Assembly: GCA_964577275.1 (NCBI GenBank)
Contig: CAZNYR010000073.1
Span: forward strand, 599 to 19,860
Direction of reading: 5' to 3'
Origin: an uncultured Cytophagales bacterium
Lineage (GTDB): Bacteria > Bacteroidota > Bacteroidia > Cytophagales > Thermoflexibacteraceae
Length of the DNA: 19,262 bases
A program made the translations under genes and the position numbers. Below are positions 1 through 13,615 of this stretch, in pieces (the stretch's first letter is position 1; each line of letters opens with the position of its first letter). A model generated the notes under the pieces. That model did not search any database, was not told the origin of the DNA, and saw only the letters and a program-made list of their open reading frames with translations.

Positions 1-3000
1 CCGCCGCCACCGCCACCGCCACCAGTTGTGGGTGGGGCGGGATTTGGATTTTGATAAATAATTAATTCACCATTATTTGTCGTGATGGCTAAATCCATAT
101 CGCCATCACCATCTGCATCATAAGCCTCGATAGCAGTTGGCGTATTTGGTAAACTGATGGTTTTGAATGTATTATAACTTCCTGTTCCATCATTTTTTAG
201 TATTGAAATATTCTTGCCATCACCATTGGCTGTGGCAACGTCCAGATGACCATCGCCATCCATATCAAAAATGACGATTCCGAGAGGACCACCGCCCACG
301 GCGAAATCAGTTTTTGCGCTGTAATTTCCTGCGCCATTATTTTTCAAAACTGAAACATTATCCGAACTATTATTGGATGCAATCAAATCCATATCGCCAT
401 CGCCATCTACGTCCACTGCCTTGACGACCTGCGGAGAAGTTCCTGCGGTATAATCGGTTTTTGTGCCATAATTTCCTGTACCATCATTCAACAAAACGGA
501 CAGATTATTTGAATTTCGGTTGGCTACTGCCAAGTCCATATCGCCATCGGCATCCGCATCAAAAGCCGTAACGCTGTACGGAGCTGTTCCGACTGCATAT
601 TTTGTGGTTGTGGCATATCCTCCTGCGCCGTTATTTTTCAAGACCATGACTTCATTTGAGCCTTCTAATGCTACGGCTAAATCCAAATCGCCATCGGCAT
701 CTGCATCAAAAGTGGTGATACCGTAAGGATTTGTTCCTGCACCAAAATCGGTACGGGTATAATTTCCAGTTCCATCATTTTTTAGGATAGAAATATTACC
801 TGAATTAGAGTTTGTTAGGGCTAAATCCATATCGCCATCGCCATCTACATCTAAAGCTACGGCAGTATGAGGCGAATTATCGGTAGCAAAGTCCGTTTTT
901 GTGGCGTAACTTCCCGTTCCATCATTTTTGAAAATGGAAATATTGTTAGCACCTCGATTCACAACAGCTAAGTCCAAATCGCCATCGCCATCCACATCCA
1001 AAGTTACTACGGTATTTGGATTTGTTCCTGTGGCAAGTCCGTTTCCGGCGGTCTGAAATTCGGTAGTTCCTGCATTTGCCTTGACCGTAAATGAAAATTG
1101 CGTTTTGGCATCGCCGCCATCGGTGCTTTGCACGCCGTTCGTAAAAATGACGGTTATTGTTTCGCCCGCCTTAAAAGATTTAGTAGGATTGTAGGTTACG
1201 GTCGAAGTTCCGCCGCCTGACCAAGTTCCTGCGGTATGAAGTCCTGATTGTGAGCCAATAATTTTGATATTCGTTGTGTTCAGGGTTGCTCCATTAATGG
1301 CTTTGCTGAAAGCGACCTGAATAGCAGTATTGGCATTTTGGTTTATGGCATTATTCGTTGGGCTAACCGAATTGACGGTGGCAGGTGGTGCTGCATTTCT
1401 AAGAATTTGTAATTTGCCATCATTTGTTACGATAGCTAAATCCATATCGCCGTCATTATCAGCATCATAAGCCGAAATGGCGTTTACTTTCACACCAATA
1501 TTCATGTTGGTAGCCGTACCGTAATTTCCTGTTCCTCCGTTGGTTAAGAAAGCGATATTCGTACCATCGTGATTTGCTACGGCTAAATCTAAATCGCCAT
1601 CGCCATCCGCATCATAAGCCGTAGTTCCATAAGGGAAACCATTTACACCAAAGTTTATTGGTGTGTCATAACTTCCCGAACCATTATTTTTCAAAAGTGA
1701 TACATTGCCCGAATTATAATTTGTTGAAACTATATCCATATCACCATCGCTATCTGCATCTAAAATTGTTAAAGCTAAAGGATAATCGCCTGCGGCAAAA
1801 TCTGTTTTTGTGCCATAGCTACCTGTTCCGTCATTCAACAAAACAGAAATATTATCCGACTGATAGTTAGCGACTGCCAAGTCTATATCTCCATCATTAT
1901 CCGCATCAAAGGCTTCTACATAAATCGGGTCATAATCGACACTTCCTACCGCATATCCCGTAGATGTGCCGTAATTTCCTGAACCATCATTCATAAAAAC
2001 TGCTACTTCATGAGGTTTACCAACTGCTACGGCTAAATCCAAATCGCCATCGGCATCGGCATCCAAAGCCGTAATACCAGTAGGAAAAAGTCCCGTAGCA
2101 ATCGTGCTGGTACTGGAAAAATCTCCTGTACCATTATTTTTCATGATGTAAATATTATTTGCACCTGCGTTAGTTACTGCCAAATCCATATCGCCATCGC
2201 CATCTACGTCTAAGGCAACTCCTATGAAAGTTTGATCGCCTGCACCAAAATCCGTTTTTGCTCCGTAATTTCCATTTCCATTATTTTTGAAGATAGAGAT
2301 ATTGTCCGAACCATTATTCAGGACACCCATGTCCAAATCGCCATCCCCATCGACATCCAGCGGAATAACATCAAAAGGCGTGGCTCCTGCCGTTAGTCCG
2401 CCACCGCTTACGGTTTGGAAGAAGGTAGTTCCTGCATTTGCCTTGACCGTAAATGAAAATTGGGCTTTGGCATTGCCGCCTTGTCCTGTTTTTGAGCCAC
2501 TAAACACAACGCTGACGGTTTCGCCCGCCTTGAAAGGTGTGGTCGGCGTGTAGGTTACGGTCGAAGTTCCGCCGCCCGTCCAATTTCCGCCCGTGTTTGC
2601 ACCTGATTGTGAACCGATAATTTTTACGTTGGTTGCGTTTAATGTTGCGCCATCAATGACCGTACTGAAAGCCACTTGAATGGCGACATTTGTATTTTGA
2701 TTCAGGGCATTATTCGTTGGGCTAACCGAATTGACGGTGGCAGGTGGAACAGCAGGCAACGCAGGATAAACCCACAACTCCTCTCCGTTAATGCCGTTGT
2801 TAGCCGTAAAAATGAGTTTTGTGCCTACGACTGTCAAACCACTGGGGCTACCGTTTCCTGCACCTGCTTGAATATTAGCGAAAAGCTGCGTATTTCCTGC
2901 CGTACCATCCGTTACCCAAAGTTCTCGTCCGTTTGTGCCATCATCTGCTACGAAATACAATTTATTATCATACACGATAAATTGAGCAGGGCTACTACTT

Positions 3001-4157
3001 CCTGCAGGATGAATATCTTTTAACATTTGTGTACCAGCTCCCGTGCCGTCTGTTTCCCATAATTCTATCTGAGTTCCATCTCCTGCACTGAAATATAATT
3101 TGCCATTGAAAACGGTTAGATTGTTGGGATAAGCATTACTAACACCTCCTCCGACATTAATATCTTTGACGATTTGCGTCCCTAAGGCTGTGCCATCGCT
3201 CATCCAGAGTTCTGTGTTTTCTGCGTTAAAAATACCCATAAATGGGTCGATACTACCCGCATCGCTTGCTGTGAAATATAATTTACCATTAAATTCTATA
3301 AAATTATCGATAGCACTTTCACCACTTCCCGGATTGATGTCTTTGACCAATACGGTTCCAGCAGCAGTTCCATCGCTGACATAAAGTTCATTCCCAGTGG
3401 TAGCGTCAGTTCCACGGAAAAATAATTTATTGCCCCCTATCACGGTCAAATTAAATGGAATACTTCCTGCTGCGCCAGTTCGAATATCTTTGAGCATTTG
3501 CGTACCTGCCGCTGTGCCGTCCGTTTCCCAGAGTTCACTTCCATTGGTGCCTTCATTGGCTGTGAAATACATTTTTCCGCCCATGACCACAAACTTTAAG
3601 CCACCAGAACCAATCGAACTCCCAGCACCGACATTAATATCTTTGAGCATTTTCGTCCCAGCTACTGTACCATCCGATTCCCAAAGTTCTCGTCCGTTTG
3701 TGCCATCGTTGGCGACGAAATAAAATTTGCCATTAAAAAGAGTCAGGGCTTCTGCATCCGAACCATTGGCACCAGGATTAATATCTTTGAAGAGTTGAGT
3801 ACCAGCCGTTGTGCCATCGCTTACCCAAAGTTCTTTTCCATTTACAGCATCATCAGCCATAAAATAAAATTTACCACCAAACTCAATGAATTCACTATTA
3901 AAAACGCCCCAACCGCCACCTGCTTGGATGTCTTTGAGGAGTTGTGTACCCGTAGGCGTGCCGTCCGTTACCCAAAGTTCGCCACCATGCGTCCCATCAG
4001 ATAGTTCGACATAGAGCTTGCCTCCAAAAACTATCTTTTTGTTGATAAAAATATCACCACCAGCATTAATATCCTTGAGTAAGGATTGTGCCTGCAAGCT
4101 ATTTCCCGTGAAAAACAGGAAAGCCAATGCGATTACGCCAAAGTATTTTCTTACCAT
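1..4157 (-). CDS. Giant secreted repeat protein, partial. The C-terminal end lies beyond the left window edge. Architecture: signal peptide, ~9 ELWxxDGT repeats, two tandem modules each of an Ig-like domain plus 7 FG-GAP/VCBS-type Ca-binding repeats, then a poly-Gly linker. Adhesin-like; a T9SS C-terminal sorting domain probably lies off-window (inference).
   Basis: The ATG is the reverse complement of 'cat' at 4155-4157, giving MVRKYFGVIALAFLFFTGNSLQAQS..., which looks like a signal peptide. I translated the minus strand by hand and it stays open from 4157 to position 1. The N-terminal third carries GELWVTDGT, KELWVSDGT, RELWESDGT, SELWETDGT and similar units about every 50 aa. After that come two copies of ...PPATVNSVSPTNNA(I/L)NQN...IKIIGSQSG...FSFTVKANAGTT..., an Ig-like segment. 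Each copy is followed by 7 units of xDxDxDGDxDLAV...NDGTGNY at a 147-bp period. The window ends in GGTGGC-type codons for GGGGGGG. This gene is absent from the supplied track, presumably because it has no stop inside the window. Confidence 0.8.
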   Translation of the reverse strand, partial: MVRKYFGVIALAFLFFTGNSLQAQSLLKDINAGGDIFINKKIVFGGKLYVELSDGTHGGELWVTDGTPTGTQLLKDIQAGGGWGVFNSEFIEFGGKFYFMADDAVNGKELWVSDGTTAGTQLFKDINPGANGSDAEALTLFNGKFYFVANDGTNGRELWESDGTVAGTKMLKDINVGAGSSIGSGGLKFVVMGGKMYFTANEGTNGSELWETDGTAAGTQMLKDIRTGAAGSIPFNLTVIGGNKLFFRGTDATTGNELYVSDGTAAGTVLVKDINPGSGESAIDNFIEFNGKLYFTASDAGSIDPFMGIFNAENTELWMSDGTALGTQIVKDINVGGGVSNAYPNNLTVFNGKLYFSAGDGTQIELWETDGTGAGTQMLKDIHPAGSSSPAQFIVYDNKLYFVADDGTNGRELWVTDGTAGNTQLFANIQAGAGNGSPSGLTVVGTKLIFTANNGINGEELWVYPALPAVPPATVNSVSPTNNALNQNTNVAIQVAFSTVIDGATLNATNVKIIGSQSGANTGGNWTGGGTSTVTYTPTTPFKAGETVSVVFSGSKTGQGGNAKAQFSFTVKANAGTTFFQTVSGGGLTAGATPFDVIPLDVDGDGDLDMGVLNNGSDNISIFKNNGNGNYGAKTDFGAGDQTFIGVALDVDGDGDMDLAVTNAGANNIYIMKNNGTGDFSSTSTIATGLFPTGITALDADADGDLDLAVAVGKPHEVAVFMNDGSGNYGTSTGYAVGSVDYDPIYVEAFDADNDGDIDLAVANYQSDNISVLLNDGTGSYGTKTDFAAGDYPLALTILDADSDGDMDIVSTNYNSGNVSLLKNNGSGSYDTPINFGVNGFPYGTTAYDADGDGDLDLAVANHDGTNIAFLTNGGTGNYGTATNMNIGVKVNAISAYDADNDGDMDLAIVTNDGKLQILRNAAPPATVNSVSPTNNAINQNANTAIQVAFSKAINGATLNTTNIKIIGSQSGLHTAGTWSGGGTSTVTYNPTKSFKAGETITVIFTNGVQSTDGGDAKTQFSFTVKANAGTTEFQTAGNGLATGTNPNTVVTLDVDGDGDLDLAVVNRGANNISIFKNDGTGSYATKTDFATDNSPHTAVALDVDGDGDMDLALTNSNSGNISILKNDGTGNYTRTDFGAGTNPYGITTFDADADGDLDLAVALEGSNEVMVLKNNGAGGYATTTKYAVGTAPYSVTAFDADADGDMDLAVANRNSNNLSVLLNDGTGNYGTKTDYTAGTSPQVVKAVDVDGDGDMDLIASNNSSDNVSVLKNNGAGNYSAKTDFAVGGGPLGIVIFDMDGDGHLDVATANGDGKNISILKNDGTGSYNTFKTISLPNTPTAIEAYDADGDGDMDLAITTNNGELIIYQNPNPAPPTTGGGGGGG
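25..2755 (-). repeat. Intragenic tandem duplication: two ~1.36-kb modules (about 25-1395 and 1400-2755), each encoding an Ig-like domain plus a 7-unit FG-GAP/VCBS block
   Basis: Plus-strand blocks recur with an offset of 1359-1362 bp. Examples are 'ggtagttcctgcatttgccttgaccgtaaatgaaaattg' at 1062 and again at 2424, 'gtaggttacggtcgaagttccgccgcc', and 'attattcgttgggctaaccgaattgacggtggcaggtgg' at 1350-1388 and 2709-2747. Within each module the Asp-rich motif 'atccatatcgccatcgccatc' recurs about every 147 bp. Confidence 0.75.
2765..4080 (-). repeat. In-frame ELWxxDGT repeat array (~9 units of ~50 aa) in the N-terminal part of the giant protein
   Basis: Hand translation gives ELWVTDGT, ELWVSDGT, ELWESDGT, ELWETDGT, ELYVSDGT, ELWMSDGT, ELWETDGT, ELWVTDGT and a degenerate EELWVYPA. 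Each unit is followed by AGTQ(L/M)(L/F/V)KDI. Confidence 0.7.
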
Positions 4158-4217
4158 TTTGCTCTAATTGTTTTGAAGTTTTAAAATTTAAAAAAGGAAA
4201 AATTTTTGTTCTCGGAG

Positions 4218-4249
4218 CAAAACTAATGGAAACACAAGAGGAGATGCAA
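4218..4249 (-). promoter_or_regulatory. Candidate Bacteroidota sigma-A-type promoter for the giant repeat-protein gene. On the minus strand the -33 TTG is at 4249-4247 and the -7 TAGTTTTG is at 4225-4218.
   Basis: The plus strand reads 'caaaacta' at 4218-4225, which is TAGTTTTG on the minus strand and an exact TAnnTTTG. 'caa' at 4247-4249 gives TTG with a 21-nt spacer. The predicted 5' UTR to the ATG at 4157 is about 50 nt. Confidence 0.4.
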
Positions 4250-4645
4250 GAATTGATACCCTTCAAAATCCCTTTGAAAATAAAATAAGCTATGGTATTA
4301 TTCGTGTTTTTTTTGGTATAAAACCAAGATTTGCTTAAAGGTTTATTTTTGAGGCAAGAATAAAACGGAAGTTGGAGATTCGTGAAAATATATTTATTAT
4401 ATTGATTATCAAGTATTTAGACCGTATTTATCATTGAAAACTGTCTGGAAAATAAAAATAGATAAAATAGTTTTGTGAATAATGCACCCTTCATTTACAC
4501 TTCAAAAAATAGTAACTTCCTGAATTGATTTCCAGATAAATTAATGAGATGTATATTATTTTTTGTAATATTCCAAGATAAAAATGGTATTATTCAAATA
4601 TTTTTCAGGCATTTGATGTTCATCATTTGGACATCACGTCATGCC

Positions 4646-5335
4646 TTATCCTCCTAAAATTTGATTTATGACATCCCGAATTTTATTCATAATCGAAGCC
4701 AATTCGGAATCCGATTTATTGGCACTGACCATATCGGAGGTTTCGGAAAGCGGAGTACGTTCGGCAATCGTCAGGGCAAACATTTCGGTAAAGAAACACA
4801 CAAATTCGGCAGAAATTCCCGTTTTTTGTGCCTGAAAATTGACTCGAAACGAAAAATCCATGTGTTGTTGCAGTTGCGTGGGGATAATTTGTGCGACCAT
4901 TTCAGGGCTATATGTCTGAATTTCAGGGATGTGTCCAGTAATTTTTCGGTTCAAAATATCGGCGTATTTCGTAACGACCGAAGCCGCCAAAATATTATCG
5001 ACCTCCAATAGCATGGCTTCCCGCATTTCGGGATTTCCGATTAAACTCTTGGGTAACAGGGCTTTATAGGTTTTTGTAGCATTATTATCCGAAAAAATTA
5101 AGAATGAATTGGCTTTCATTTGTCCTACGATTTCGGTTCGTAATACGAAATATTTATCCTCGTCCAGCTTGACCGAATGCAAGACATCAGATGGCGATAG
5201 ATGCAAGGCTAAATGTTGCAAAATTACCTCGTCCTGAAGCATTTTAGCAAACGATTTGGCGGCATTTGCCAGCGCAATTTTTGCGGTGTCTTTTATCAAT
5301 TCGGCTTCCTCTTGTGTGAAAGATACAATCGCCAT
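4646..5335 (-). CDS. CheC/CheX-family protein (putative CheY-P phosphatase), 229 aa, last gene of the che-like operon
   Basis: The ATG is at 5335. 'LLEVDNILAASVVTKYADILNRKITGHIPEI' fits the CheC active-site motif E-x2-N-x22-P. The N-terminal 'DTAKIALANAAKSFAKML' resembles the first CheC repeat (EVGNIGAGHAATALSQLL-like), but its E/N positions are replaced by D/K. The gene sits directly downstream of cheA in the same orientation. Confidence 0.55.
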   Translation of the reverse strand: MAIVSFTQEEAELIKDTAKIALANAAKSFAKMLQDEVILQHLALHLSPSDVLHSVKLDEDKYFVLRTEIVGQMKANSFLIFSDNNATKTYKALLPKSLIGNPEMREAMLLEVDNILAASVVTKYADILNRKITGHIPEIQTYSPEMVAQIIPTQLQQHMDFSFRVNFQAQKTGISAEFVCFFTEMFALTIAERTPLSETSDMVSANKSDSELASIMNKIRDVINQILGG

Positions 5336-5377
5336 AATCTATCTTAATTATTAATTTTATTTCTTATAATAATGATA

Positions 5378-7204
5378 TTACGTTAAAACTGTATGATTGG
5401 TCGAAATAGACGATATTTTACCAGCGGCAAACAAATGATTAACGACCGAAGGAATATCCATGACCAAACACACATTTCCATTTCCCAAAATCGTAACGCC
5501 ACTGATAAATGGCACTTTATCAGCGGGTTTACTCAATGGTTTTTCGATAATTTCTTTTTGGTGCAAGAGCTTATCCACGACCAAACCTACCAGCCGATTG
5601 GTGGCAGAAATGACAATGACAAACAACTCGTCTTGGTCGGATAATTGCTCATAACCACGATGCAAAATCTTGCTTTCGTACAAATTTTCGAGGCACTCTG
5701 ACGTGAACAAATCACTCAACCAGACGACCGAAATTGTTTGATTGAGATAGGTTGCCGCCAGCCCTTTGCCGACTTTATGAATATCTGATTTTTTGAGGTT
5801 GATGACCGCCTCGGTAAATATCAGCGGAATGGCATATTCGGTATTTTGGGAAATAAACAAAAGCACACTTTTGACCGCCATCGAAGCGGGCAAAAACATA
5901 CTTATTTTTGAGCCTTTGCCGATGGCTGTCGTGATTTTGACTTTGCCCCCCACCGAATCAGTCGCTCGTTTCACCACATCCATTCCCACGCCCCGCCCCG
6001 ATACGGCGGTTACTTTTTCTGCACTGGAAAATCCAGCCTCAAAAATAAGATTAATAACCTCATTATCAGATATTTGTGCTGCCGTTTGTGGCGTTAAAAA
6101 TCCTTTTTCGAGGGCTTTTTTTCGGATAATATCGGCAACGATACCGCGCCCGTCATCAGCCACTTCAATCACGACATGGTCTTTATCATTTCGTGCCGAA
6201 AGCGTTACTTTGCCTACGGGATTTTTGCCGATTTTTTGGCGTTCATCGGCGGGTTCGATGCCATGACTAATTGCATTTCGGACAAGATGAATCAAGGAAT
6301 CGCTAATAATTTGCAAAATATTTCGGTCGATTTCAACGTCCGTGCCTTGCAATTCGAGTTGTACTTTTTTGCCTTCCTTGACGGAAATATCACGGATAAT
6401 CCGATGAAATTTGTTGAACAAAACGCTCACTTGCACCAGCCGAACACCCATGACGGAATATTGCAAATCGGAAGTAATGCGATACAAGGCAGCATAATCG
6501 TTTTCGTCTGCCAGTTCCGAAACTTGACTTTGGGTAATGAGTTTATCCTTTTCGATTGCCAATTCGCCGACCAGATTTAACAAATTATCCAACTTTTCGA
6601 CAGGCACCTGCACGAGGTCAGAAAACGTAATTTTGGGTTGCTGTTTTTTGTCGATGGATTCGTTCGTATCTTCCTGTTTATCAATACTTTCAGGTATTTC
6701 TAAGGCGGTTTGAGGCGTTGGGTTTTTGGGCGTGTTTTCAGCATCCTTTTGAGGCAAAATTTCTGTCGTTACGCTGTCGTCTTGGAGTTGGATGCCTTTG
6801 GCATTTCGTAAGATGACTTTGAGTTTGGTTTGGATGCCTTGATAGCGTACTTTTTCGCCCGATTGCACTGCCTGAATTAGCTCGCCTAATTTGTCATTGG
6901 CACGGAATAAATCATCAAAAATCGTGGTGGTTAATTGGAATTTATCCTGCCGAATTTCGCCAAAAATATCTTCGAGCAGGTGCGCTGTTTCGGAGATGGG
7001 CGTAAATCCCATCGCTGCGGCATTTGCCTTGAGGGTGTGAGTAATTCGGAAAATAGCATTTACTGCCTCTTTGTCAGCGTGGTCATTTTCCAACTTGACA
7101 AAAAACTGATTGAGTTCTTCGTAATTTTCGAGTGCCTCTGCCAAAAATAATGCTTTGTATTCTTCTTCCTTCGCCATAGGTTTATCGTCATGCCGTGATG
7201 CCAT
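5378..7204 (-). CDS. cheA: Chemotaxis-type histidine kinase CheA with HPt, dimerisation, HATPase and CheW-like domains; no recognisable P2 domain
   Basis: The HPt motif is 'AIFRITHTLKANAAAMGF'. A low-complexity linker rich in Q/E/D/K/P/T follows, then the ATP-binding motifs 'HLVRNAISHGIE', 'EVADDGRGI' and 'GRGVGMDVV'. The C-terminal ~130 aa are CheW-like. The track ORF starts with TTG at 7210. I prefer the in-frame ATG at 7204, 9 nt after the cheY stop. Confidence 0.9.
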   Translation of the reverse strand: MASRHDDKPMAKEEEYKALFLAEALENYEELNQFFVKLENDHADKEAVNAIFRITHTLKANAAAMGFTPISETAHLLEDIFGEIRQDKFQLTTTIFDDLFRANDKLGELIQAVQSGEKVRYQGIQTKLKVILRNAKGIQLQDDSVTTEILPQKDAENTPKNPTPQTALEIPESIDKQEDTNESIDKKQQPKITFSDLVQVPVEKLDNLLNLVGELAIEKDKLITQSQVSELADENDYAALYRITSDLQYSVMGVRLVQVSVLFNKFHRIIRDISVKEGKKVQLELQGTDVEIDRNILQIISDSLIHLVRNAISHGIEPADERQKIGKNPVGKVTLSARNDKDHVVIEVADDGRGIVADIIRKKALEKGFLTPQTAAQISDNEVINLIFEAGFSSAEKVTAVSGRGVGMDVVKRATDSVGGKVKITTAIGKGSKISMFLPASMAVKSVLLFISQNTEYAIPLIFTEAVINLKKSDIHKVGKGLAATYLNQTISVVWLSDLFTSECLENLYESKILHRGYEQLSDQDELFVIVISATNRLVGLVVDKLLHQKEIIEKPLSKPADKVPFISGVTILGNGNVCLVMDIPSVVNHLFAAGKISSISTNHTVLT

Positions 7205-7213
7205 TTTCAATCA

Positions 7214-7573
7214 TTATCCCAAAACTTTATGAATCGAATCAATCAGTTGTTCGGGCGTAAAAGGTTTGACCACGTAGCCATCTGCTCCTAAAGACAATCC
7301 CGTATTAATGACTGATTGTTGTCCTACGGCACTGACCATCAGGATTTTAGTAGGACAATGTTCGTCTTTTAGGGTTTTGATAATATCCAAACCCAGCATA
7401 TCAGGCAAAATATTATCCAACGTAACGAGGTCTGGATTGAGGTCTAAAATCAAATCAATGGCATCCTCGCCTGTTCCTGCCTCGCCAACGACCTCAAAAT
7501 TTGCGCTGGTCAGGGCATCTTTGATGATGGTACGCATATACAAGGAATCATCTATCACAACGATTTTCTTCAT
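7214..7573 (-). CDS. cheY: CheY-like single-domain response regulator, 119 aa
   Basis: The ATG is at 7573. The protein reads MKKIVVIDDSLYMRT...VTLDNILPDM...MVSAVGQ...YVVKPF. This gives the acidic pocket DD, the phospho-acceptor Asp in LVTLD, and the conserved S/T and K-P of the receiver fold. Its stop lies 9 nt before the cheA start. Confidence 0.85.
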   Translation of the reverse strand: MKKIVVIDDSLYMRTIIKDALTSANFEVVGEAGTGEDAIDLILDLNPDLVTLDNILPDMLGLDIIKTLKDEHCPTKILMVSAVGQQSVINTGLSLGADGYVVKPFTPEQLIDSIHKVLG

Positions 7574-7901
7574 AATAATTTGAACGATGTATCAATTTTA
7601 CGATTTTGGATTTCTGTTTTTGAGTAAAGTAAATATATCAATTTAATTCGATTTCTCCTAATTTAGTCAGCGATTTGACAAATGGGCGAAAATTCGGGGC
7701 ATATTTTCCAGTAAATCCGCAAATAAAAGTCCCTGAAAATTGGGTGGTTTCGGACACGCCCAATTAGACTAAATGCTTGCTCAAAGCCTTGTAAATTAAG
7801 GATTTATTGTGTGTTTTTTGGCTCATTGGTTATTTTTATTTCGTGTTTTTTTCCTGTATCTTCGCTTTGTGATAAACACAAAAAAAGACCAAAAAACACA
7901 C

Positions 7902-8840: not shown

Positions 8841-9719
8841 TTAGGTTAAATCCTCTAATTGTCCGGGTATTGTTTCGGGGAAGTTCATGCGTTGCCGTGT
8901 GAATGCCAGAAAGTACGAATTTTCATCAGTTTCGTTGATTTTTCGTGGAGGAATAATCCCCATGATTCGGAATGGCGTATTGAGGTACATCTCTTCAATT
9001 AATTCGTTTTTGCCCGTGGGGATGAGCATAAAATCCGCTCCGTTTTGGTGCGATTTGATGTATTGTATCGTTTTGCTCATGTCCAATTTATTATTGAAGA
9101 TTCCGCCCGTTGTTAGGGGGAACGAAATAATAAATCGAGGTTCGTTTTGTCCGAACAGATGAGGATAATATGATTCGCACAAAAAACCAGTTTTGTTGGT
9201 GAGCATATTGATAGAGCGCAAGTTATCAGGCTTGACAATGCCGCGCCGAATGTATCCGTTTCGTTCCATGCCCAAGAGCGAAGTATAAATCGAAATGGCA
9301 GTTCCCATGCCCGTTTTGCCTAATTTTGGCGAAACCGTAATGATAATGCCAAACGAAGTTCGGTCTTCGCTATCATAGCCCGCCGAAATATCTGCGCCCA
9401 ACATTTCGCCCGTTTGGTCATGGACAATGACCGCCGTATAGCCATGAACGACCGCCCGATAGGTGTCATATTCACTGACCAACGCCGCCACTTCGGGCTT
9501 AAACTGGGTACGCATCATGTCCATAATGCTGGGCATATCGGCACGGGTAGCAAGGCGCATGGTGCAACCGATGGCTTGGGCTTGGGCTTCGAGTTGGGTT
9601 TTATAGTCAGCAACTAATTTTTTGACCTGATGGGGTTGCGTAACTCCCTCAACATCAGGATTATACTGACAAACCTCGATGGGTTTACGGAAAGGGTCTT
9701 TTAGTTCAATTGGTGTCAT
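8841..9719 (-). CDS. Hypothetical protein with a GNAT-like acetyl-CoA-binding motif; N-terminal half unrecognised
   Basis: The frame is open from 8841. The track start at 9752 is a GTG, so I prefer the ATG at 9719 (MTPIELKDPF...). 'ITVSPKLGKTGMGTAISIYTSLLGMERNGY' resembles GNAT motif A (R/K-x-x-G-x-G/A followed by a hydrophobic helix). Confidence 0.5.
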   Translation of the reverse strand: MTPIELKDPFRKPIEVCQYNPDVEGVTQPHQVKKLVADYKTQLEAQAQAIGCTMRLATRADMPSIMDMMRTQFKPEVAALVSEYDTYRAVVHGYTAVIVHDQTGEMLGADISAGYDSEDRTSFGIIITVSPKLGKTGMGTAISIYTSLLGMERNGYIRRGIVKPDNLRSINMLTNKTGFLCESYYPHLFGQNEPRFIISFPLTTGGIFNNKLDMSKTIQYIKSHQNGADFMLIPTGKNELIEEMYLNTPFRIMGIIPPRKINETDENSYFLAFTRQRMNFPETIPGQLEDLT

Positions 9720-9910
9720 TTGTACTTTAAATTTTATGAGGCATTGAGCCACTGATGCGCTTGCATTTTATCATCAAAAAAACGAATACTTAATAAGATT
9801 TTGTTCTTCGGTAGTTTGTGCTATGGAAAACCTGCGCAAAGATGTCCGAAGTTATCAAAAAGGTAAATACTTTTTGACTAATTCCAGATATAATTTTAGT
9901 TCAGTCCTTC

Positions 9911-9938: not shown

Positions 9939-12569
9939 CTATAAATCACAGAGAATTTTGAGATAGAAACTACGGCGATACTGTGGGATGCGTGGCGCAT
10001 ACGGCGTTCGTGAGGCATTTCTTACGCCCGGATGCCAGTATTCTCGGTCAGTCAGATTTTCGATAATTCCCTGCAAAGCCAATCCTTTGGTCAAGTCATA
10101 GGTCAGGGCGGTATGAAAAATGGCGTAGGCTTTAATTTCAGATAATGGACTTGCCGAAACGGACGTATTTTTGCCTGTGGGTTTGGTTGCCACGTAATTC
10201 ATGCGGAGATTGGCATGAAGCCGATTTCTCAAAAATGTATGATTTACGCCCAAATTAATTTGGTGCGGTGCAATATCGCCTACTTTTACCCAAGACACAT
10301 TTTCTTGGTCTTGCATCAATTTTGCTTCGGCATATGTGAACGTGTAATTGGCATACCATTCCGTGTTTTTGTGGGTATATTTACTATTCAGTTGAATGCC
10401 TTTTGATTTAGCTTCTTCTTTCCCGACAAATCGGGTGGTTGTCGTGCCGTCTGCAAGCGTATAAACCTCATCGCTAAGGACATTTTTGTAGGCAGCATTA
10501 TACCCGATAATTTCAAAATAATAGTTGGCGTTGGCGCGCCATCGGAAGGTCAGTTCGTAATTGCGGACACGTTCGGGTTTCAGGGTAGGATTATTAATGC
10601 GCCGAATCGCCGAGCGAGAATATTTATTGAAGGCAGAAGCATCCTTGAAGGCTTCGGCATAAATGGCTTTGATAACAAACTTTTTGGGTGCATAAACGAG
10701 TGCCAAGCGTGGACTTAGTTCGGAGCCGTAGCCTAAACTTAAATTCTTGACCGTATTATTATCCCAGCGCAAACCGCCCGTAAGTTTCACAAAATCAGAT
10801 AGTTGCCAGTCCATTTGGCAGTATGCCCCCAAATCGGTAACGTCATAAAAGTTTCCGCCTCTAATCGTGTCGTTTTGGGTCGTATAATTAATGAAACCAT
10901 TTCGGGTGGGTTCTGGCACATCCGAAAGTAAATAACCACCCTGAATGACGCTACTCCGAAACTCAAAACCTCCAACGATGTCGAAATTTTCCAGATTATA
11001 AGCAAATTTGATTTCGTTTCGGAATTGTGTCGAACGCTGACTGAAATAGGTATCCAGCCAATAAGATGGCACATCTTTGACCAAACTATCCAGCCCCAAA
11101 TCACCATTGCCATAACTTCGATAAAAAGCAATGCGGGTATCAGGAAAAAATCCATTGACCCGAAATGTACTTTGGTTGGCGATATAAAGTCGTCCCGTTA
11201 CATATTTTTCAAATTTGGCATACGCCAACCACTGCCGTACTGTCCACATCGTGCCGTTCAACGACCCCGAATAAATGTTTCCGTCCGAATAAGCGGAGGC
11301 AGCACCTTCGGCACGATTCCAGTAATGAAATCCAATTTGAAAATTTCCAGATTTCAATTTGCCAGATAAATACATATTATCTGTCGGATTGCTATAACGA
11401 AGCGGATTGCCTCTGGAGTCGGTTTGATACCCTAAGGCATCGGTGGCTTGCGCCTGCTGAATTGCCAAATCCGTAGGACGAATTACCGTAGAATCGCCCT
11501 GCGGAACAATTTGATAAAGACTTGATATTGAGGGGTTTTTGTCCATAAATTGTTGCACATGACTGGCATTGGTGATGCTCAAGTTATTGTAATAATGATT
11601 GGCAAATAAATCGGGATTCCATTGGTAATCCCAATCCTCAAATTGGGATAAATCACGCTCCTCCGAAAGGAAAAATCGCCCTGTCATGGTTACGGTCAAT
11701 TTTTGTCGTTCAAAACCGCCCGTCAGGTCTACATATCGCGTATTCATCGAGCCGTATGCAGCCTGCGCCGAAAGTCCATATTTTTTTTGTCCTTTGAATA
11801 AATCTACTTCATTTTTAGTAACCACATTTACCACGCCCAAAAACGCATTCGCCCCGTAAGTCGTTGAGGAGGGTCCATAAATAATCTCGACACGCTTAAT
11901 GTTGCTTATCGGATATTGTCTGGAAATAAATGCGGTATTTGACCACAGTTCGTTATCTTCCATGCCATCCATCAGGAGCATGGTGCGGTCGGTATTGGCA
12001 GCCGAACGAAACCCTCTTTGATAAAGATTGGAATATGCCAAGCCCATCGAACGCGAAATATCAAAACCCGAAATATCATGGAACAAGGCTTCCAAATCAC
12101 GATAGCCTCGATTTCGGATGTCCTCCTCGCTGATAATGACGATGGTGGCAGGAACTTCCTCGATATTTTCGGCTTTTTTTGAAACCGAAGAAGTCTGCTT
12201 GGAAGCCAAAATCCGCCGCACATTTTCGGTTACTTTGATGAAAATGGGCGAGTCATCATAGGAAGGCTCAAAATCAGGTTGTGTAACCAAAAGTTGTTGG
12301 ATGTGTCGTTCGGCTTGCGTCATGGAATCCAAGCCAATGTAAGATTGCGCCACTAATTTTTGTGCCTCCACCCGTGCGGGATACGTCAGATATTTGGCAC
12401 TATGGTTGAGATATTTACCCAAATACTCAATCACAGACTCGAATCGTCCGCTGGCAAAGTCAATTTTGGCACGAGAAATAATTACTTCCGAACTCTCTTT
12501 TTGTCCATAAACCGCAAACACAAATGCCAGACAAAACGCAATCGAGGTTAAAAATCGTTTTAATAACAT
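9939..12569 (-). CDS. TonB-dependent outer-membrane receptor with signal peptide, a ~120-aa helical N-terminal extension, plug and beta-barrel
   Basis: The ATG at 12569 gives MLLKRFLTSIAFCLAFVFAVYGQ, a signal peptide. The track start 26 codons upstream has no signal peptide, so I reject it. Plug-domain motifs are 'ATIVIISEEDIRNRGYRDLEALFHDISGF', 'TMLLMDGMEDNELWS' and 'VEIIYGPSSTTYGANAFLGVVNVVTK'. The long C-terminal part alternates aromatic and small residues and is Gly-rich, which is typical of a 22-strand barrel. Confidence 0.85.
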   Translation of the reverse strand: MLLKRFLTSIAFCLAFVFAVYGQKESSEVIISRAKIDFASGRFESVIEYLGKYLNHSAKYLTYPARVEAQKLVAQSYIGLDSMTQAERHIQQLLVTQPDFEPSYDDSPIFIKVTENVRRILASKQTSSVSKKAENIEEVPATIVIISEEDIRNRGYRDLEALFHDISGFDISRSMGLAYSNLYQRGFRSAANTDRTMLLMDGMEDNELWSNTAFISRQYPISNIKRVEIIYGPSSTTYGANAFLGVVNVVTKNEVDLFKGQKKYGLSAQAAYGSMNTRYVDLTGGFERQKLTVTMTGRFFLSEERDLSQFEDWDYQWNPDLFANHYYNNLSITNASHVQQFMDKNPSISSLYQIVPQGDSTVIRPTDLAIQQAQATDALGYQTDSRGNPLRYSNPTDNMYLSGKLKSGNFQIGFHYWNRAEGAASAYSDGNIYSGSLNGTMWTVRQWLAYAKFEKYVTGRLYIANQSTFRVNGFFPDTRIAFYRSYGNGDLGLDSLVKDVPSYWLDTYFSQRSTQFRNEIKFAYNLENFDIVGGFEFRSSVIQGGYLLSDVPEPTRNGFINYTTQNDTIRGGNFYDVTDLGAYCQMDWQLSDFVKLTGGLRWDNNTVKNLSLGYGSELSPRLALVYAPKKFVIKAIYAEAFKDASAFNKYSRSAIRRINNPTLKPERVRNYELTFRWRANANYYFEIIGYNAAYKNVLSDEVYTLADGTTTTRFVGKEEAKSKGIQLNSKYTHKNTEWYANYTFTYAEAKLMQDQENVSWVKVGDIAPHQINLGVNHTFLRNRLHANLRMNYVATKPTGKNTSVSASPLSEIKAYAIFHTALTYDLTKGLALQGIIENLTDREYWHPGVRNASRTPYAPRIPQYRRSFYLKILCDL

Positions 12570-12730
12570 GGGCTTGGTTTTGAATTTTTGGGCGTAAGCT
12601 ACATAATTTTTGGGGAAACTAAAAAAATATACACGCACAATACACAAAAAAGCAACCTCTATGCCCTAAATTTGGTCTGATAAATAGAAGTTTTGCGCCC
12701 CAAAAACATGATTTATCCACAAAAAATTTA

Positions 12731-12778: not shown

Positions 12779-13615
12779 ATGAAGAAACTCAAAATTCATA
12801 AACTTAACGCCACAGAAAAACTTGTCCTGAAGTATTTGTTGGTCATGCCTCGCCGATGGTACATTACCCCTAACTTGGTACAATTTTTTCGGTGTGGCAT
12901 CCAAACCGAACACATAATGGAAATTTATGCCGATTATTTGCCCGGTGCTACTCTCCGACAAAAATTAAAGCGTGGTATCCAACTCATTTTTGGCATGATG
13001 CCCCATATCGTCATGTATGAACGGCTTAGCCGACAAGGTTATTTGGAATGGGTGCTAAAAAATATGGTCGAAAAAGGATGGCTCGAATACGAAGACAAAA
13101 TGTATCGCCTCACGACCGAAGGAAGCCTCAAAGGACGCAAAAAAATCAAAATTAAGCCCCATGATGTCGTGGTTTTGGTGCATTATTTCCGAAATTTAAT
13201 TTATGCTGATAATTCGATTGATGGCTATAATGGCGTTTTTGGATTGCCCTATGCCGAAAGTTTGTTGGAAAATATTCAAGGAAAGCATCTGTTGCTTGCC
13301 AGTCTGGCGAATGTGGTCGGCAAAACTTACATGGCACTCGAAAATTTTGATAAAGCCGTTCATTATCAGATGATAGAAGTCGAACACTACGAAGAATTAT
13401 TGACCGAAGATGACATGAACCTCGCTTATTCCTATGGTATGGCGGCGATTTATTGTTATTATAACGAAGAGTTTGCCGATGCCAAAGATTTAATCGAAAA
13501 AAGTGCCGATATTTTTCAGAAAAATGTAGATGAAGAAGACGAAAACTACAAAAATCTCCTCCACTGGCGAGATGATATTTACGAGGCTTACGAAGCCCAA
13601 AAATTTAATTATTGA
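12779..13615 (+). CDS. Hypothetical cytoplasmic protein, 278 aa, no recognised family
   Basis: It starts with ATG, runs 837 bp without a stop, shows ordinary non-repetitive composition and no signal peptide. Small antisense track ORFs fall inside it, and a hairpin follows its stop. Confidence 0.6.
   Translation: MKKLKIHKLNATEKLVLKYLLVMPRRWYITPNLVQFFRCGIQTEHIMEIYADYLPGATLRQKLKRGIQLIFGMMPHIVMYERLSRQGYLEWVLKNMVEKGWLEYEDKMYRLTTEGSLKGRKKIKIKPHDVVVLVHYFRNLIYADNSIDGYNGVFGLPYAESLLENIQGKHLLLASLANVVGKTYMALENFDKAVHYQMIEVEHYEELLTEDDMNLAYSYGMAAIYCYYNEEFADAKDLIEKSADIFQKNVDEEDENYKNLLHWRDDIYEAYEAQKFNY

What the first reader, a model, noticed from the sequence alone, without database searches (positions are those of the whole stretch)
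4646..7573. Orphan minimal chemosensory module (cheY-cheA-cheC-like) with no MCP, CheW, CheR or CheB in the operon
The three genes are tightly packed on the minus strand: a 9-nt gap between cheY and cheA and 42 nt between cheA and cheC-like. The operon is bounded upstream by a divergent metabolic gene and downstream by a 487-bp AT-rich spacer, so nothing else belongs to it. CheA has HPt, kinase and its own CheW-like domain, but where the P2 (CheY-docking) domain would be it has a low-complexity acidic linker. The phosphatase is a CheC-family protein that keeps only one of the two E-x2-N-x22-P active sites. Bacteroidota lack flagella. A che-like system with no receptor or adaptation genes nearby may control gliding, T9SS-dependent adhesin display or development. 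The neighbouring giant adhesin gene is a candidate output.
Basis: partly seen in the sequence, partly recalled or inferred. Interest (0 to 1): 0.5.

Follow-up and report, generated by a model that had tools for sequence, protein, structure and literature searches.

The report
Split-off CheY-CheA-CheC chemosensory core, Cytophagales
The three genes are a real, intact CheY–CheA–CheC-type signalling core in a gliding-type Cytophagales bacterium, but relatives carry the same trio inside a complete chemotaxis-like cluster, so this is most likely a dispersed piece of a known kind of pathway and not a receptor-less "minimal" system.

Summary
Observation confirmed. Window 4646-7573 (minus strand) encodes three genes:
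- a single-domain CheY;
- a CheA with P1, a low-complexity linker, P3, P4 and P5, and no P2;
- a 229-aa CheC-fold protein that keeps only the second E-x2-N-x22-P site.

No MCP, CheW, CheR, CheB or CheD lies anywhere in the 19.3-kb window.

Interpretation partly supported. The order CheY-CheA-CheC-like is conserved in Cytophagales. In five more distant loci, including cultured gliding Marivirga tractuosa, it sits inside a full cluster: soluble multi-PAS MCP, CheW, sometimes CheD, CheB and CheR. Only the window and its closest relative (Cytophagales MAG UBA2561) have the bare trio.

The traits called special are family-wide:
- every family CheA lacks P2;
- 147 of 147 CheC-like representatives keep only the second site.

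In the trio-only lineage the receptor-coupling P5 domain is as conserved as the kinase domain (83% vs 78%). All three genes are under strong purifying selection. This argues that receptors and CheW exist elsewhere in the genome, which I could not check.

The adjacent adhesin gene is not a conserved neighbour.

Verdict: a new member of a known kind, in a lineage whose Che output is unstudied. Interest is low to moderate.

The parts
7214..7573 (-). cheY: 119-aa single-domain response regulator. Carries D8, D9, D53 (phospho-acceptor), S81, Y100 and K103.
   Evidence: Pfam Response_reg E=2.8e-25. NCBIfam best hit is CheY_Halo at 1.9e-24 (86.3 bits), far below that model's 200-bit cut-off. Residues read from the translation. 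59-83% identical to the CheY of related che clusters.
5378..7204 (-). cheA: histidine kinase with P1, linker, P3, P4 and P5. Possible starts are TTG 7210, ATG 7204 and ATG 7177. The last is the conserved start in relatives.
   Evidence: Pfam Hpt, H-kinase_dim, HATPase_c and CheW. NCBIfam CheA_Halo 2.1e-114. PDB T. maritima CheA 4.8e-79. N box HLVRNAISHGIE, G1 DDGRGI, F IFEAGFSS and G2 GRGVGMDVV read from the translation.
6863..7159 (-). CheA P1 (Hpt) domain with phospho-His in FRITHTLKANAAAMG (His58 of the 610-aa ORF).
   Evidence: Pfam Hpt aa 18-116. The His motif is conserved in all seven aligned family CheAs.
6620..6862 (-). 81-aa low-complexity acidic/proline-rich linker where P2 would be.
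   Evidence: No Pfam or PDB match. Linker length is 60-103 aa and identity 20-49% across family CheAs, all without P2.
5870..6619 (-). CheA P3 dimerisation and P4 ATP-binding kinase domains.
   Evidence: Pfam H-kinase_dim aa 198-254 and HATPase_c aa 304-442. PDB 1b3q.
5435..5866 (-). CheA P5 (CheW-like) receptor-coupling domain.
   Evidence: Pfam CheW aa 449-592, E=6.1e-15. 83% identical to UBA2561, against 78% for P4.
4646..5335 (-). CheC-like gene: 229-aa predicted CheY~P phosphatase of the CheC/CheX/FliY fold, with a C-terminal helical extension at about aa 197-226.
   Evidence: The family has 803 representatives at E<=1e-3. 17 of 51 sampled members hit Pfam CheC and 12 of 51 hit CheX.
4925..5005 (-). 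Retained second active site, E111-x2-N114-x22-P137.
   Evidence: Aligns to the E-x2-N-x22-P site of T. maritima CheC. Invariant in 147 of 147 family representatives and 51 of 51.
5210..5290 (-). Degenerate first site (D16, K19 and L42 in place of E, N and P).
   Evidence: Alignment to 1xkr. Only 5 of 147 family representatives have a full N-terminal motif.
7574..7898 (.). 325-bp divergent intergenic region (32% GC) between cheY and the HMGL-like gene. Presumed promoter region of the trio.
   Evidence: Sequence and GC. The sigma-70 scan is not above chance. No promoter was demonstrated.
4158..4645 (.). 488-bp AT-rich (27% GC) spacer between the CheC-like gene and the FG-GAP/Big_5 surface-protein gene.
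   Evidence: No Rfam family, no convincing ORF, and no terminator above chance.

Best explanation
The locus is the phosphotransfer core of a Cytophagales chemosensory pathway.

**Mechanism**
- CheA autophosphorylates on the P1 histidine (FRITHTLK).
- It passes the phosphoryl group to Asp53 of the single-domain CheY. No P2 docking domain is involved, as in every member of this CheA family.
- The CheC-fold protein removes the phosphate from CheY~P through its one conserved E-x2-N-x22-P site, resetting the signal.

**Input and output**
- Input most likely comes from soluble multi-PAS/HAMP MCP-type receptors coupled through CheW to the CheA P5 domain. In this lineage (window and UBA2561) those genes would sit elsewhere in the genome, not next to the trio.
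- The output, meaning the target of CheY~P in a presumably non-flagellated gliding bacterium, is unknown. Control of gliding/T9SS-motor behaviour is the leading guess.

**Basis**
- Shown: gene and domain identities, catalytic residues, fold, family-wide architecture, synteny in relatives, purifying selection.
- Inferred: phosphatase activity, existence of remote MCP/CheW, output.
For: **Identities**
- Domains and residues.
- CheC fold and active site.

**Order conserved.** The order CheY-CheA-CheC-like is conserved in UBA2561 (83, 76 and 66% identity), L007, L009, L010 and L017/L028. L013 shows CheA-CheC-like. L023 has the same components in another order.

**Complete clusters around the core in relatives**
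- L007: PAS x11-GAF-HAMP-MCP | CheW | CheY | CheY | CheA | CheC-like.
- L009: PAS-MCP | CheW | CheY | CheA | CheC-like.
- L010: adds CheB and CheR.
- L017 and Marivirga tractuosa L028: add CheD, CheB and CheR.
- L023: CheW | MCP | CheW | CheB | CheA | CheR | CheY | CheC-like | CheY.
- Sources.

**Constraint in the trio-only lineage**
- P5 is 83% identical between the window and UBA2561, at least as high as P4 at 78%.
- pN is 0.10-0.20 against pS 0.68-0.76 for all three genes.

**Family traits.** All seven aligned family CheAs lack P2.
Against: - No MCP, CheW, CheR, CheB or CheD was found in the 19.3-kb window. No MCP or CheW was found within +/-10 kb of the trio in UBA2561.
- No CheW attributable to UBA2561 or to the window organism appeared among the 120 best Cytophagales-type CheW hits.
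- The CheR and CheB 5 kb from the UBA2561 trio sit in a SiaB-like/SiaC cluster. In one strain a Ser/Thr-kinase-GAF-PP2C giant gene follows them. They may therefore belong to another circuit.
- CheC-like relatives also occur without CheA (L008) or entirely alone (L006, L012), so this phosphatase family is not strictly tied to full Che systems.
- Phosphatase activity and the output are untested.
Confidence: 0.62

Rival explanations
1. Truly receptor-less minimal module. The window/UBA2561 lineage has lost MCP and CheW. CheA then works as a free-standing kinase, either constitutive or regulated through another partner. CheY~P level is set mainly by the CheC-like phosphatase.
For: The bare trio is conserved in two lineages that differ at saturated synonymous sites. 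No MCP or CheW lies within the window or within +/-10 kb in UBA2561. No lineage-attributable CheW appears in the top hits. CheY-CheC-like pairs exist without CheA in L008, which shows the family's modules can be rewired.
Against: P5, whose known role is receptor/CheW coupling, is as conserved as the catalytic domain. All more distant relatives with enough flanking sequence have adjacent MCP and CheW. Dispersed che genes are common in bacteria (general knowledge). Absence was tested on only ~20 kb of each genome.
Confidence: 0.15
2. One reading: the trio is functionally linked to the neighbouring giant FG-GAP/Big_5 adhesin, and controls adhesin display or T9SS-dependent gliding through that gene.
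For: The adhesin gene is on the same strand, 488 nt downstream. Gliding Bacteroidota move surface adhesins with the T9SS rotary motor, and upstream sensory control of motor direction is an open question (PMC12239597).
Against: The adjacency is not conserved. UBA2561 has a convergent GHL10 gene there, and other relatives have unrelated genes. The 488-bp, 27%-GC spacer suggests a separate transcription unit. A single-domain CheY has no DNA-binding output, so it would not regulate the neighbouring gene's transcription directly.
Confidence: 0.05
3. Decaying remnant: the trio is what is left after deletion of a full che cluster and no longer functions.
For: MCP-CheW upstream and CheB/CheR are missing relative to more distant relatives.
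Against: The reading frames are intact and all catalytic residues are present. pN is far below pS against UBA2561. The same bare trio is kept in at least two diverged lineages, plus the 84% and 69% identical CheC-like relatives P0002 and P0003.
Confidence: 0.04

Closest known systems
Complete che cluster of gliding Cytophagales, e.g. Marivirga tractuosa CP159478.1 (PAS-MCP | CheW | CheD | CheY | CheB | CheA | CheC-like | GAF/PAS | PAS | CheR). It is annotated in genomes. I found no experimental study of it in the searchable literature.
   Same: Orthologous CheY (61% identity), CheA (47%; P1-linker-P3-P4-P5, no P2) and CheC-like protein (32%; single second-site E-x2-N-x22-P), in the same order.
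   Different: The window and UBA2561 lack the adjacent MCP, CheW, CheD, CheB, CheR and PAS/GAF genes. The window's CheC-like protein is longer (229 vs 202 aa) because of a C-terminal helical extension.
CheC/CheX/FliY family of CheY~P phosphatases (T. maritima CheC 1xkr; B. burgdorferi CheX-CheY complex 3hzh).
   Same: Same fold, two pseudo-symmetric alpha/beta halves (Foldseek E=8.7e-11, TM 0.62-0.68). Same catalytic E-x2-N-x22-P motif on the second long helix.
   Different: Only the second site is kept, as in CheX, but the protein has the two-half monomer length of CheC and not the ~155-aa length of CheX. Sequence identity is 14-18%, and the Pfam CheC score is below its gathering threshold.
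Thermotoga/Bacillus-type chemotaxis core (CheA-CheW-CheY with CheC/CheD), within the Wuichet-Zhulin scheme of 19 categories, F1-F17, Tfp and ACF (scheme as summarised in bioRxiv 10.1101/2022.05.07.491037).
   Same: CheA P3-P4-P5 closely resembles T. maritima CheA (E=4.8e-79). The phosphatase is of the CheC type, not CheZ. CheD is present in some relatives.
   Different: No P2 domain. The receptors in relatives are soluble multi-PAS MCPs. The hosts are Cytophagales, regarded as non-flagellated gliders (my own knowledge, not tested here). Assignment to a category was not tested because no MiST class models were available.
Chemosensory systems that control non-flagellar behaviour, e.g. Myxococcus xanthus Frz, which has the cytoplasmic receptor FrzCD and controls gliding reversals (PMC6952110 and PMC12077210, seen).
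   Same: A Che-type kinase pathway in a gliding bacterium, with cytoplasmic receptors in relatives.
   Different: FrzE is a CheA-CheY fusion, and its outputs FrzZ and FrzX act on a different (Agl/Glt) motor. No homology of output is implied. The analogy is functional only and untested.

Membership tests
CheA histidine kinase | P1 Hpt domain with phospho-accepting His | tested here: met
   Pfam Hpt 2.6e-11. FRITHTLKANAAAMG is conserved in the family alignment. PDB CheA P1 matches at about 1e-13.
CheA histidine kinase | P3 dimerisation and P4 HATPase domains with N, G1, F and G2 boxes | tested here: met
   Pfam H-kinase_dim 5.7e-9 and HATPase_c 1.3e-17. The boxes are read directly in the translation. 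1b3q matches at 4.8e-79.
CheA histidine kinase | P5 CheW-like domain | tested here: met
   Pfam CheW 6.1e-15, aa 449-592.
CheA histidine kinase | [quoted passage not shown] | tested here: not met
   No Pfam or PDB match for aa 117-197. The family linker is low-complexity and of variable length.
CheY (single-domain receiver) | Receiver fold with the acidic pocket, phospho-Asp, Thr/Ser, aromatic switch residue and Lys | tested here: met
   Pfam Response_reg 2.8e-25. D8, D9, D53, S81, Y100 and K103 read from the sequence.
CheC/CheX/FliY phosphatase family | CheC-type alpha/beta fold | tested here: met
   AlphaFold model with pLDDT 83 and pTM 0.83. Top Foldseek PDB hits are CheC 1xkr, 3qta, FliY 4hyn and CheX 1squ.
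CheC/CheX/FliY phosphatase family | At least one E-x2-N-x22-P active site | tested here: met
   E111-x2-N114-x22-P137 aligns with the T. maritima CheC second site. It is invariant in 147 of 147 family representatives.
CheC/CheX/FliY phosphatase family | Two active sites (the CheC/FliY type, as opposed to CheX) | tested here: not met
   The first site reads D16, K19 and L42. Only 5 of 147 family members have a full first motif.
CheC/CheX/FliY phosphatase family | Passes the Pfam PF04509 gathering score | tested here: not met
   16.7 bits against a 22-bit cut-off. 17 of 51 relatives match CheC and 12 of 51 match CheX at E<=0.01. Profile-level tests pass.
CheC/CheX/FliY phosphatase family | CheY~P phosphatase activity | not testable with these tools
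   Needs biochemistry.
Complete chemosensory pathway (MCP-CheW-CheA-CheY with CheR/CheB adaptation) | MCP and CheW encoded with the kinase | tested here: not met
   None in the window or within +/-10 kb in UBA2561. Present next to the orthologous trio in L007, L009, L010, L017, L023 and L028.
Complete chemosensory pathway (MCP-CheW-CheA-CheY with CheR/CheB adaptation) | MCP, CheW, CheR and CheB anywhere in the same genome | not testable with these tools
   Only a 19.9-kb contig of the source genome is reachable. A CheR 79% identical to UBA2561's exists in NCBI (P0155) but cannot be tied to this organism.
Wuichet-Zhulin chemosensory categories (F1-F17, Tfp, ACF) | Assignment by CheA/CheB/CheR class models | not tested
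   No class HMMs were available. The scheme is cited.

The most novel reading that the evidence does not exclude
In the window/UBA2561 lineage the CheA-CheY-CheC-like trio has been cut loose from MCP and CheW. It would then act as a receptor-independent phosphorelay that sets reversal or direction of the T9SS-driven gliding machinery, with CheY~P acting on a non-flagellar motor component. More broadly, this Cytophagales Che family would be the missing sensory input to Bacteroidota gliding.
Probability: 0.12. Interest if true: 0.6.

Novelty: new member of a known kind. Interest (0 to 1): 0.27.

Why it matters
Gliding Bacteroidota move with the T9SS rotary motor. The sensory pathway that biases this motor is unknown, and recent work identifies GldJ as a direction controller but no upstream sensor (PMC12239597).

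A conserved Che-type pathway with soluble PAS receptors in Cytophagales is a reasonable candidate input. It can be tested in cultured species such as Marivirga tractuosa, which carries the complete cluster.

This locus adds little on its own. It shows only that the CheY-CheA-CheC-like core can be kept under selection away from its receptor genes. The features that looked unusual, no P2 and a single-site CheC, are family traits.

Tried and rejected
**Locating the rest of the genome**
- The window protein is recorded on one NCBI contig of 19,860 bp and one 1.3-kb Logan contig, with no accessions.
- The genome-contig scan did not return the window's own genome.

**Looking for a CheR, CheW or MCP of the same lineage**
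- The CheR search gave P0155, NCBI-only and 79% identical to UBA2561's. It has no DNA on record and cannot be tied to the window organism.
- The CheW profile search returned no hit attributable to UBA2561. The candidate with the matching source signature (P0374) turned out to be a different marine organism with a full cluster.

**Walking upstream in UBA2561**
- The neighbouring strain's contig (L016) starts only 187 bp upstream of the SiaB-like (DUF6272) gene.

**Metagenome scans**
- The first, with the CheC-like alignment, found nothing.
- The second, with the CheA alignment, gave only one relevant locus, L023.

**Other dead ends**
- Foldseek against afdb50 was not available.
- Literature searches found no study of Che systems in Cytophagales or Bacteroidota. 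The Wuichet and Zhulin 2010 paper is not held.
- The sigma-70 promoter and terminator scan was not above chance. There were no Rfam hits.
- The unannotated window ORFs (303 aa, 278-aa TPR, 711 aa) have no PDB matches and no che-related Pfam hits.

**Rejected ideas**
- The CheC-like protein as a FliM-like switch. FliM lacks the E-x2-N-x22-P site that is invariant here.
- The UBA2561 CheR/CheB pair as proof of a complete system. It sits in a SiaB/SiaC partner-switch context.
Full report
**1. What is in the sequence**

The minus strand of window 4646-7573 carries three closely spaced ORFs.

*cheY (7214-7573).* This encodes a 119-aa single-domain receiver (Pfam Response_reg, E=2.8e-25). The full set of receiver residues can be read in the translation: D8, D9, D53, S81, Y100 and K103.

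*cheA (5378-7204/7210).* Pfam finds Hpt, H-kinase_dim, HATPase_c and CheW domains. NCBIfam finds CheA at 2.1e-114.
- Thermotoga maritima CheA P3-P4-P5 (1b3q) matches residues 196-588 at E=4.8e-79. CheA P1 structures match residues 14-119.
- The phospho-His motif FRITHTLKANAAAMG and the N, G1, F and G2 boxes are all present.
- Residues ~117-197 match nothing. They are a P/E/K/Q/T-rich low-complexity stretch, so there is no P2 domain.

*CheC-like gene (4646-5335).* This encodes a 229-aa protein.
- Pfam CheC scores only 16.7 bits, below the 22-bit cut-off.
- NCBIfam CheC_Thtogales gives 1e-7.
- A profile of six homologues hits T. maritima CheC (1xkr, 2f9z) at 2e-9.
- A 51-member family profile aligns to the N-terminal 141 residues of CheC with 97.9% probability.
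- An AlphaFold model (pLDDT 83, pTM 0.83) has as its best PDB fold matches CheC 1xkr (E=8.7e-11), a CheC-like archaeal protein, FliY and CheX. FliM middle domains follow.
- In the alignment to 1xkr, the second active site is intact (E111-x2-N114-x22-P137). The first is degenerate (E->D16, N->K19, P->L42).

- cheA to the CheC-like gene is 42 nt.
- An HMGL-like gene lies divergently upstream.
- The 9-nt cheY-cheA gap depends on the start codon. Relatives start at the conserved MAKEEEYK, which corresponds to the ATG at 7177 and a 36-nt gap.

*Rest of the window.* There is no MCP, CheW, CheR, CheB or CheD by Pfam on the large ORFs or by tblastn with queries taken from relatives.

**2. Where it comes from and what relatives look like**

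The closest genomes are Cytophagales MAGs. The nearest is Cytophagales bacterium UBA2561, also seen in coral and other metagenomes. Its identities are CheY 83%, CheA 76% and CheC-like 66%.

It has the same bare trio, flanked by unrelated genes: PhoD upstream and a convergent GHL10 gene downstream. The giant FG-GAP/Big_5 surface-protein gene beside the window's trio is therefore not a conserved neighbour.

More distant relatives, with CheA 45-51% and CheY 59-65% identical, carry the same core inside complete clusters:

| Locus | Source | Gene order |
|---|---|---|
| L007 | Bernardetiaceae | 2312+-aa soluble PAS x11-GAF-HAMP-MCP, CheW, CheY, CheY, CheA, CheC-like |
| L009 | Cytophagales | PAS-HAMP-MCP, CheW, CheY, CheA, CheC-like |
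| L010 | Microscillaceae | PAS-MCP, CheW, CheY, CheB, CheA, CheC-like, CheR |
| L017 | Marine metagenome | MCP, CheW, CheD, CheY, CheB, CheA, CheC-like, PAS protein |
| L023 | Metagenome | CheW, MCP, CheW, CheB, CheA, CheR, CheY, CheC-like, CheY |
| L028 | Marivirga tractuosa CP159478.1 | PAS-MCP, CheW, CheD, CheY, CheB, CheA, CheC-like (202 aa, no Pfam hit on record), GAF/PAS, PAS, CheR |

CheW proteins of this type are named in other cultured Cytophagales: Sediminitomix, Flammeovirga, Marivirga and Limibacter.

The trio is thus the conserved core of a Cytophagales chemosensory system. The window and UBA2561 are the exception in having it alone.

**3. Are the 'special' features special?**

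No.
- All seven aligned family CheAs, including those beside MCP and CheW, lack P2. They have a 60-103-aa, poorly conserved linker.
- The exhaustive profile search found 803 representatives of the CheC-like family at E<=1e-3, mostly ~200 aa.
- Among 147 of the best hits, all 147 keep E-x2-N-x22-P at the second site. Only 5 have a complete first motif. E111, N114 and P137 are invariant in the 51-member alignment.
- The single-site CheC is therefore a subfamily trait. It resembles CheX in site number but CheC in size and topology.

**4. Is the bare trio functional, and does it still talk to receptors?**

- Against UBA2561, non-synonymous differences are low while synonymous sites are saturated. 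pN is 0.10, 0.15 and 0.20 and pS is 0.68, 0.76 and 0.76 for cheY, cheA and the CheC-like gene. All three genes are under purifying selection, so this is not a decaying remnant.
- Within CheA, the P5 domain is 83% identical between the two trio-only genomes. The established role of P5 is coupling to CheW and receptors. The kinase domain is 78% identical and the linker 49%.
- I take this as indirect evidence that receptor coupling is retained and that MCP and CheW genes lie elsewhere in these genomes. That is an inference.

I could not examine the rest of either genome.

Two other findings bear on this.
- UBA2561 has CheR and a receiver-less CheB 5 kb upstream of the trio. They follow SiaB-like (DUF6272) and SiaC genes. 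In a sister strain a 1747-aa Pkinase-AAA_16-TPR-GAF-SpoIIE gene follows them. They may therefore serve a partner-switch circuit and not the CheA pathway.
- A CheR 79% identical to UBA2561's exists in NCBI (P0155). It might be the window organism's, but it cannot be tied to it.

**5. Mechanism**

*Best explanation (confidence about 0.6 for the whole, about 0.9 for the core relay).*
- CheA autophosphorylates on the P1 histidine.
- It transfers the phosphoryl group to CheY Asp53 without a P2 docking step.
- The CheC-like protein dephosphorylates CheY~P through E111 and N114.
- Input comes from remote soluble PAS-type MCPs through CheW and P5.
- The output is an unknown CheY~P target.

*Output.* Cytophagales are regarded as non-flagellated gliders. 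That is my own knowledge and was not tested here. Control of the direction of the T9SS gliding motor is an open question (PMC12239597). Gliding control is therefore the most attractive output, but nothing here tests it.

*Rivals.*
- A truly receptor-less module (0.15).
- A non-functional remnant (0.04; contradicted by selection).

**6. Comparison with the known, and novelty**

The parts are members of known families: CheA, CheY and the CheC/CheX/FliY fold. The system as a whole exists, complete, in sequenced and cultured Cytophagales. I found no experimental paper on Che systems of Cytophagales or Bacteroidota in the searchable library, so the biology of the family is unexplored.

This locus is a new member of a known kind. 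Its only peculiarity is gene dispersal.

Interest is low to moderate (0.27). The family-level question, what a Che pathway does in a gliding bacterium, is interesting. This locus does not make it more testable than the complete cluster in Marivirga does.

**7. Limits**

- Absence of MCP and CheW was tested on only ~20 kb per genome.
- Category assignment (F1-F17, Tfp, ACF; scheme as) was not possible.
- Phosphatase activity, the operon structure and the output are all inferred.

Noticed in passing
window 16559-19036 (-): An 825-aa bacterial homologue of the eukaryotic Major Vault Protein. Pfam gives MVP_shoulder 7.8e-29 and Vault_3 5.7e-8. PDB MVP chains match at E~1e-17 over aa 448-813. No NCBIfam name.
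   Followed up: partly
window 14325-16460 (-): A 711-aa ORF next to the MVP homologue with no Pfam, NCBIfam or PDB match. It could be a partner of the vault-like protein.
   Followed up: partly
window 3-4157 (-): A surface protein of more than 1385 aa, running off the window, with 13 FG-GAP_3 repeats, Big_5 domains and a signal-peptide-like N-terminus. It is not a conserved neighbour of the che trio.
   Followed up: partly
L005:1-2543 and L016:188-8285 (UBA2561-type Cytophagales): CheR and a receiver-less CheB methylesterase sit directly after SiaB-like (DUF6272) and SiaC genes. In L016 a 1747-aa Pkinase-AAA_16-TPR-GAF-SpoIIE protein follows them. This places a CheR/CheB pair inside what looks like a partner-switching cluster.
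   Followed up: partly
L008:9609-13863 (Cyclobacteriaceae MAG): A CheY (65% identical) and a CheC-like gene are followed by a 1069-aa GAF/PAS protein. There is no CheA within +/-10 kb. The CheY-phosphatase pair seems to be reused outside a CheA context.
   Followed up: partly
L006:1783-2460 and L012:3204-3881: CheC-like proteins about 40% identical to the window's stand alone. In L012 the upstream gene begins like RNA polymerase beta'; that identification rests on my reading of its N-terminal peptide only. No CheA or CheY is on these short contigs.
   Followed up: no
L017:7893-10793; L028:14833-17747; L008:10654-13863: A PAS/GAF-rich protein with no recognised output domain recurs immediately downstream of the CheC-like gene. 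In the Marivirga tractuosa strain it is split into two ORFs.
   Followed up: no
window 7177-7210 (-): The cheA start is ambiguous (TTG 7210, ATG 7204, ATG 7177). The conserved N-terminus MAKEEEYK in relatives favours 7177, which lengthens the cheY-cheA gap from 9 to 36 nt.
   Followed up: yes
window 8841-9752 (-) and 12779-13615 (+): A 303-aa ORF with no family or structure match, and a 278-aa TPR protein, flank a TonB-dependent receptor at 9939-12647.
   Followed up: partly
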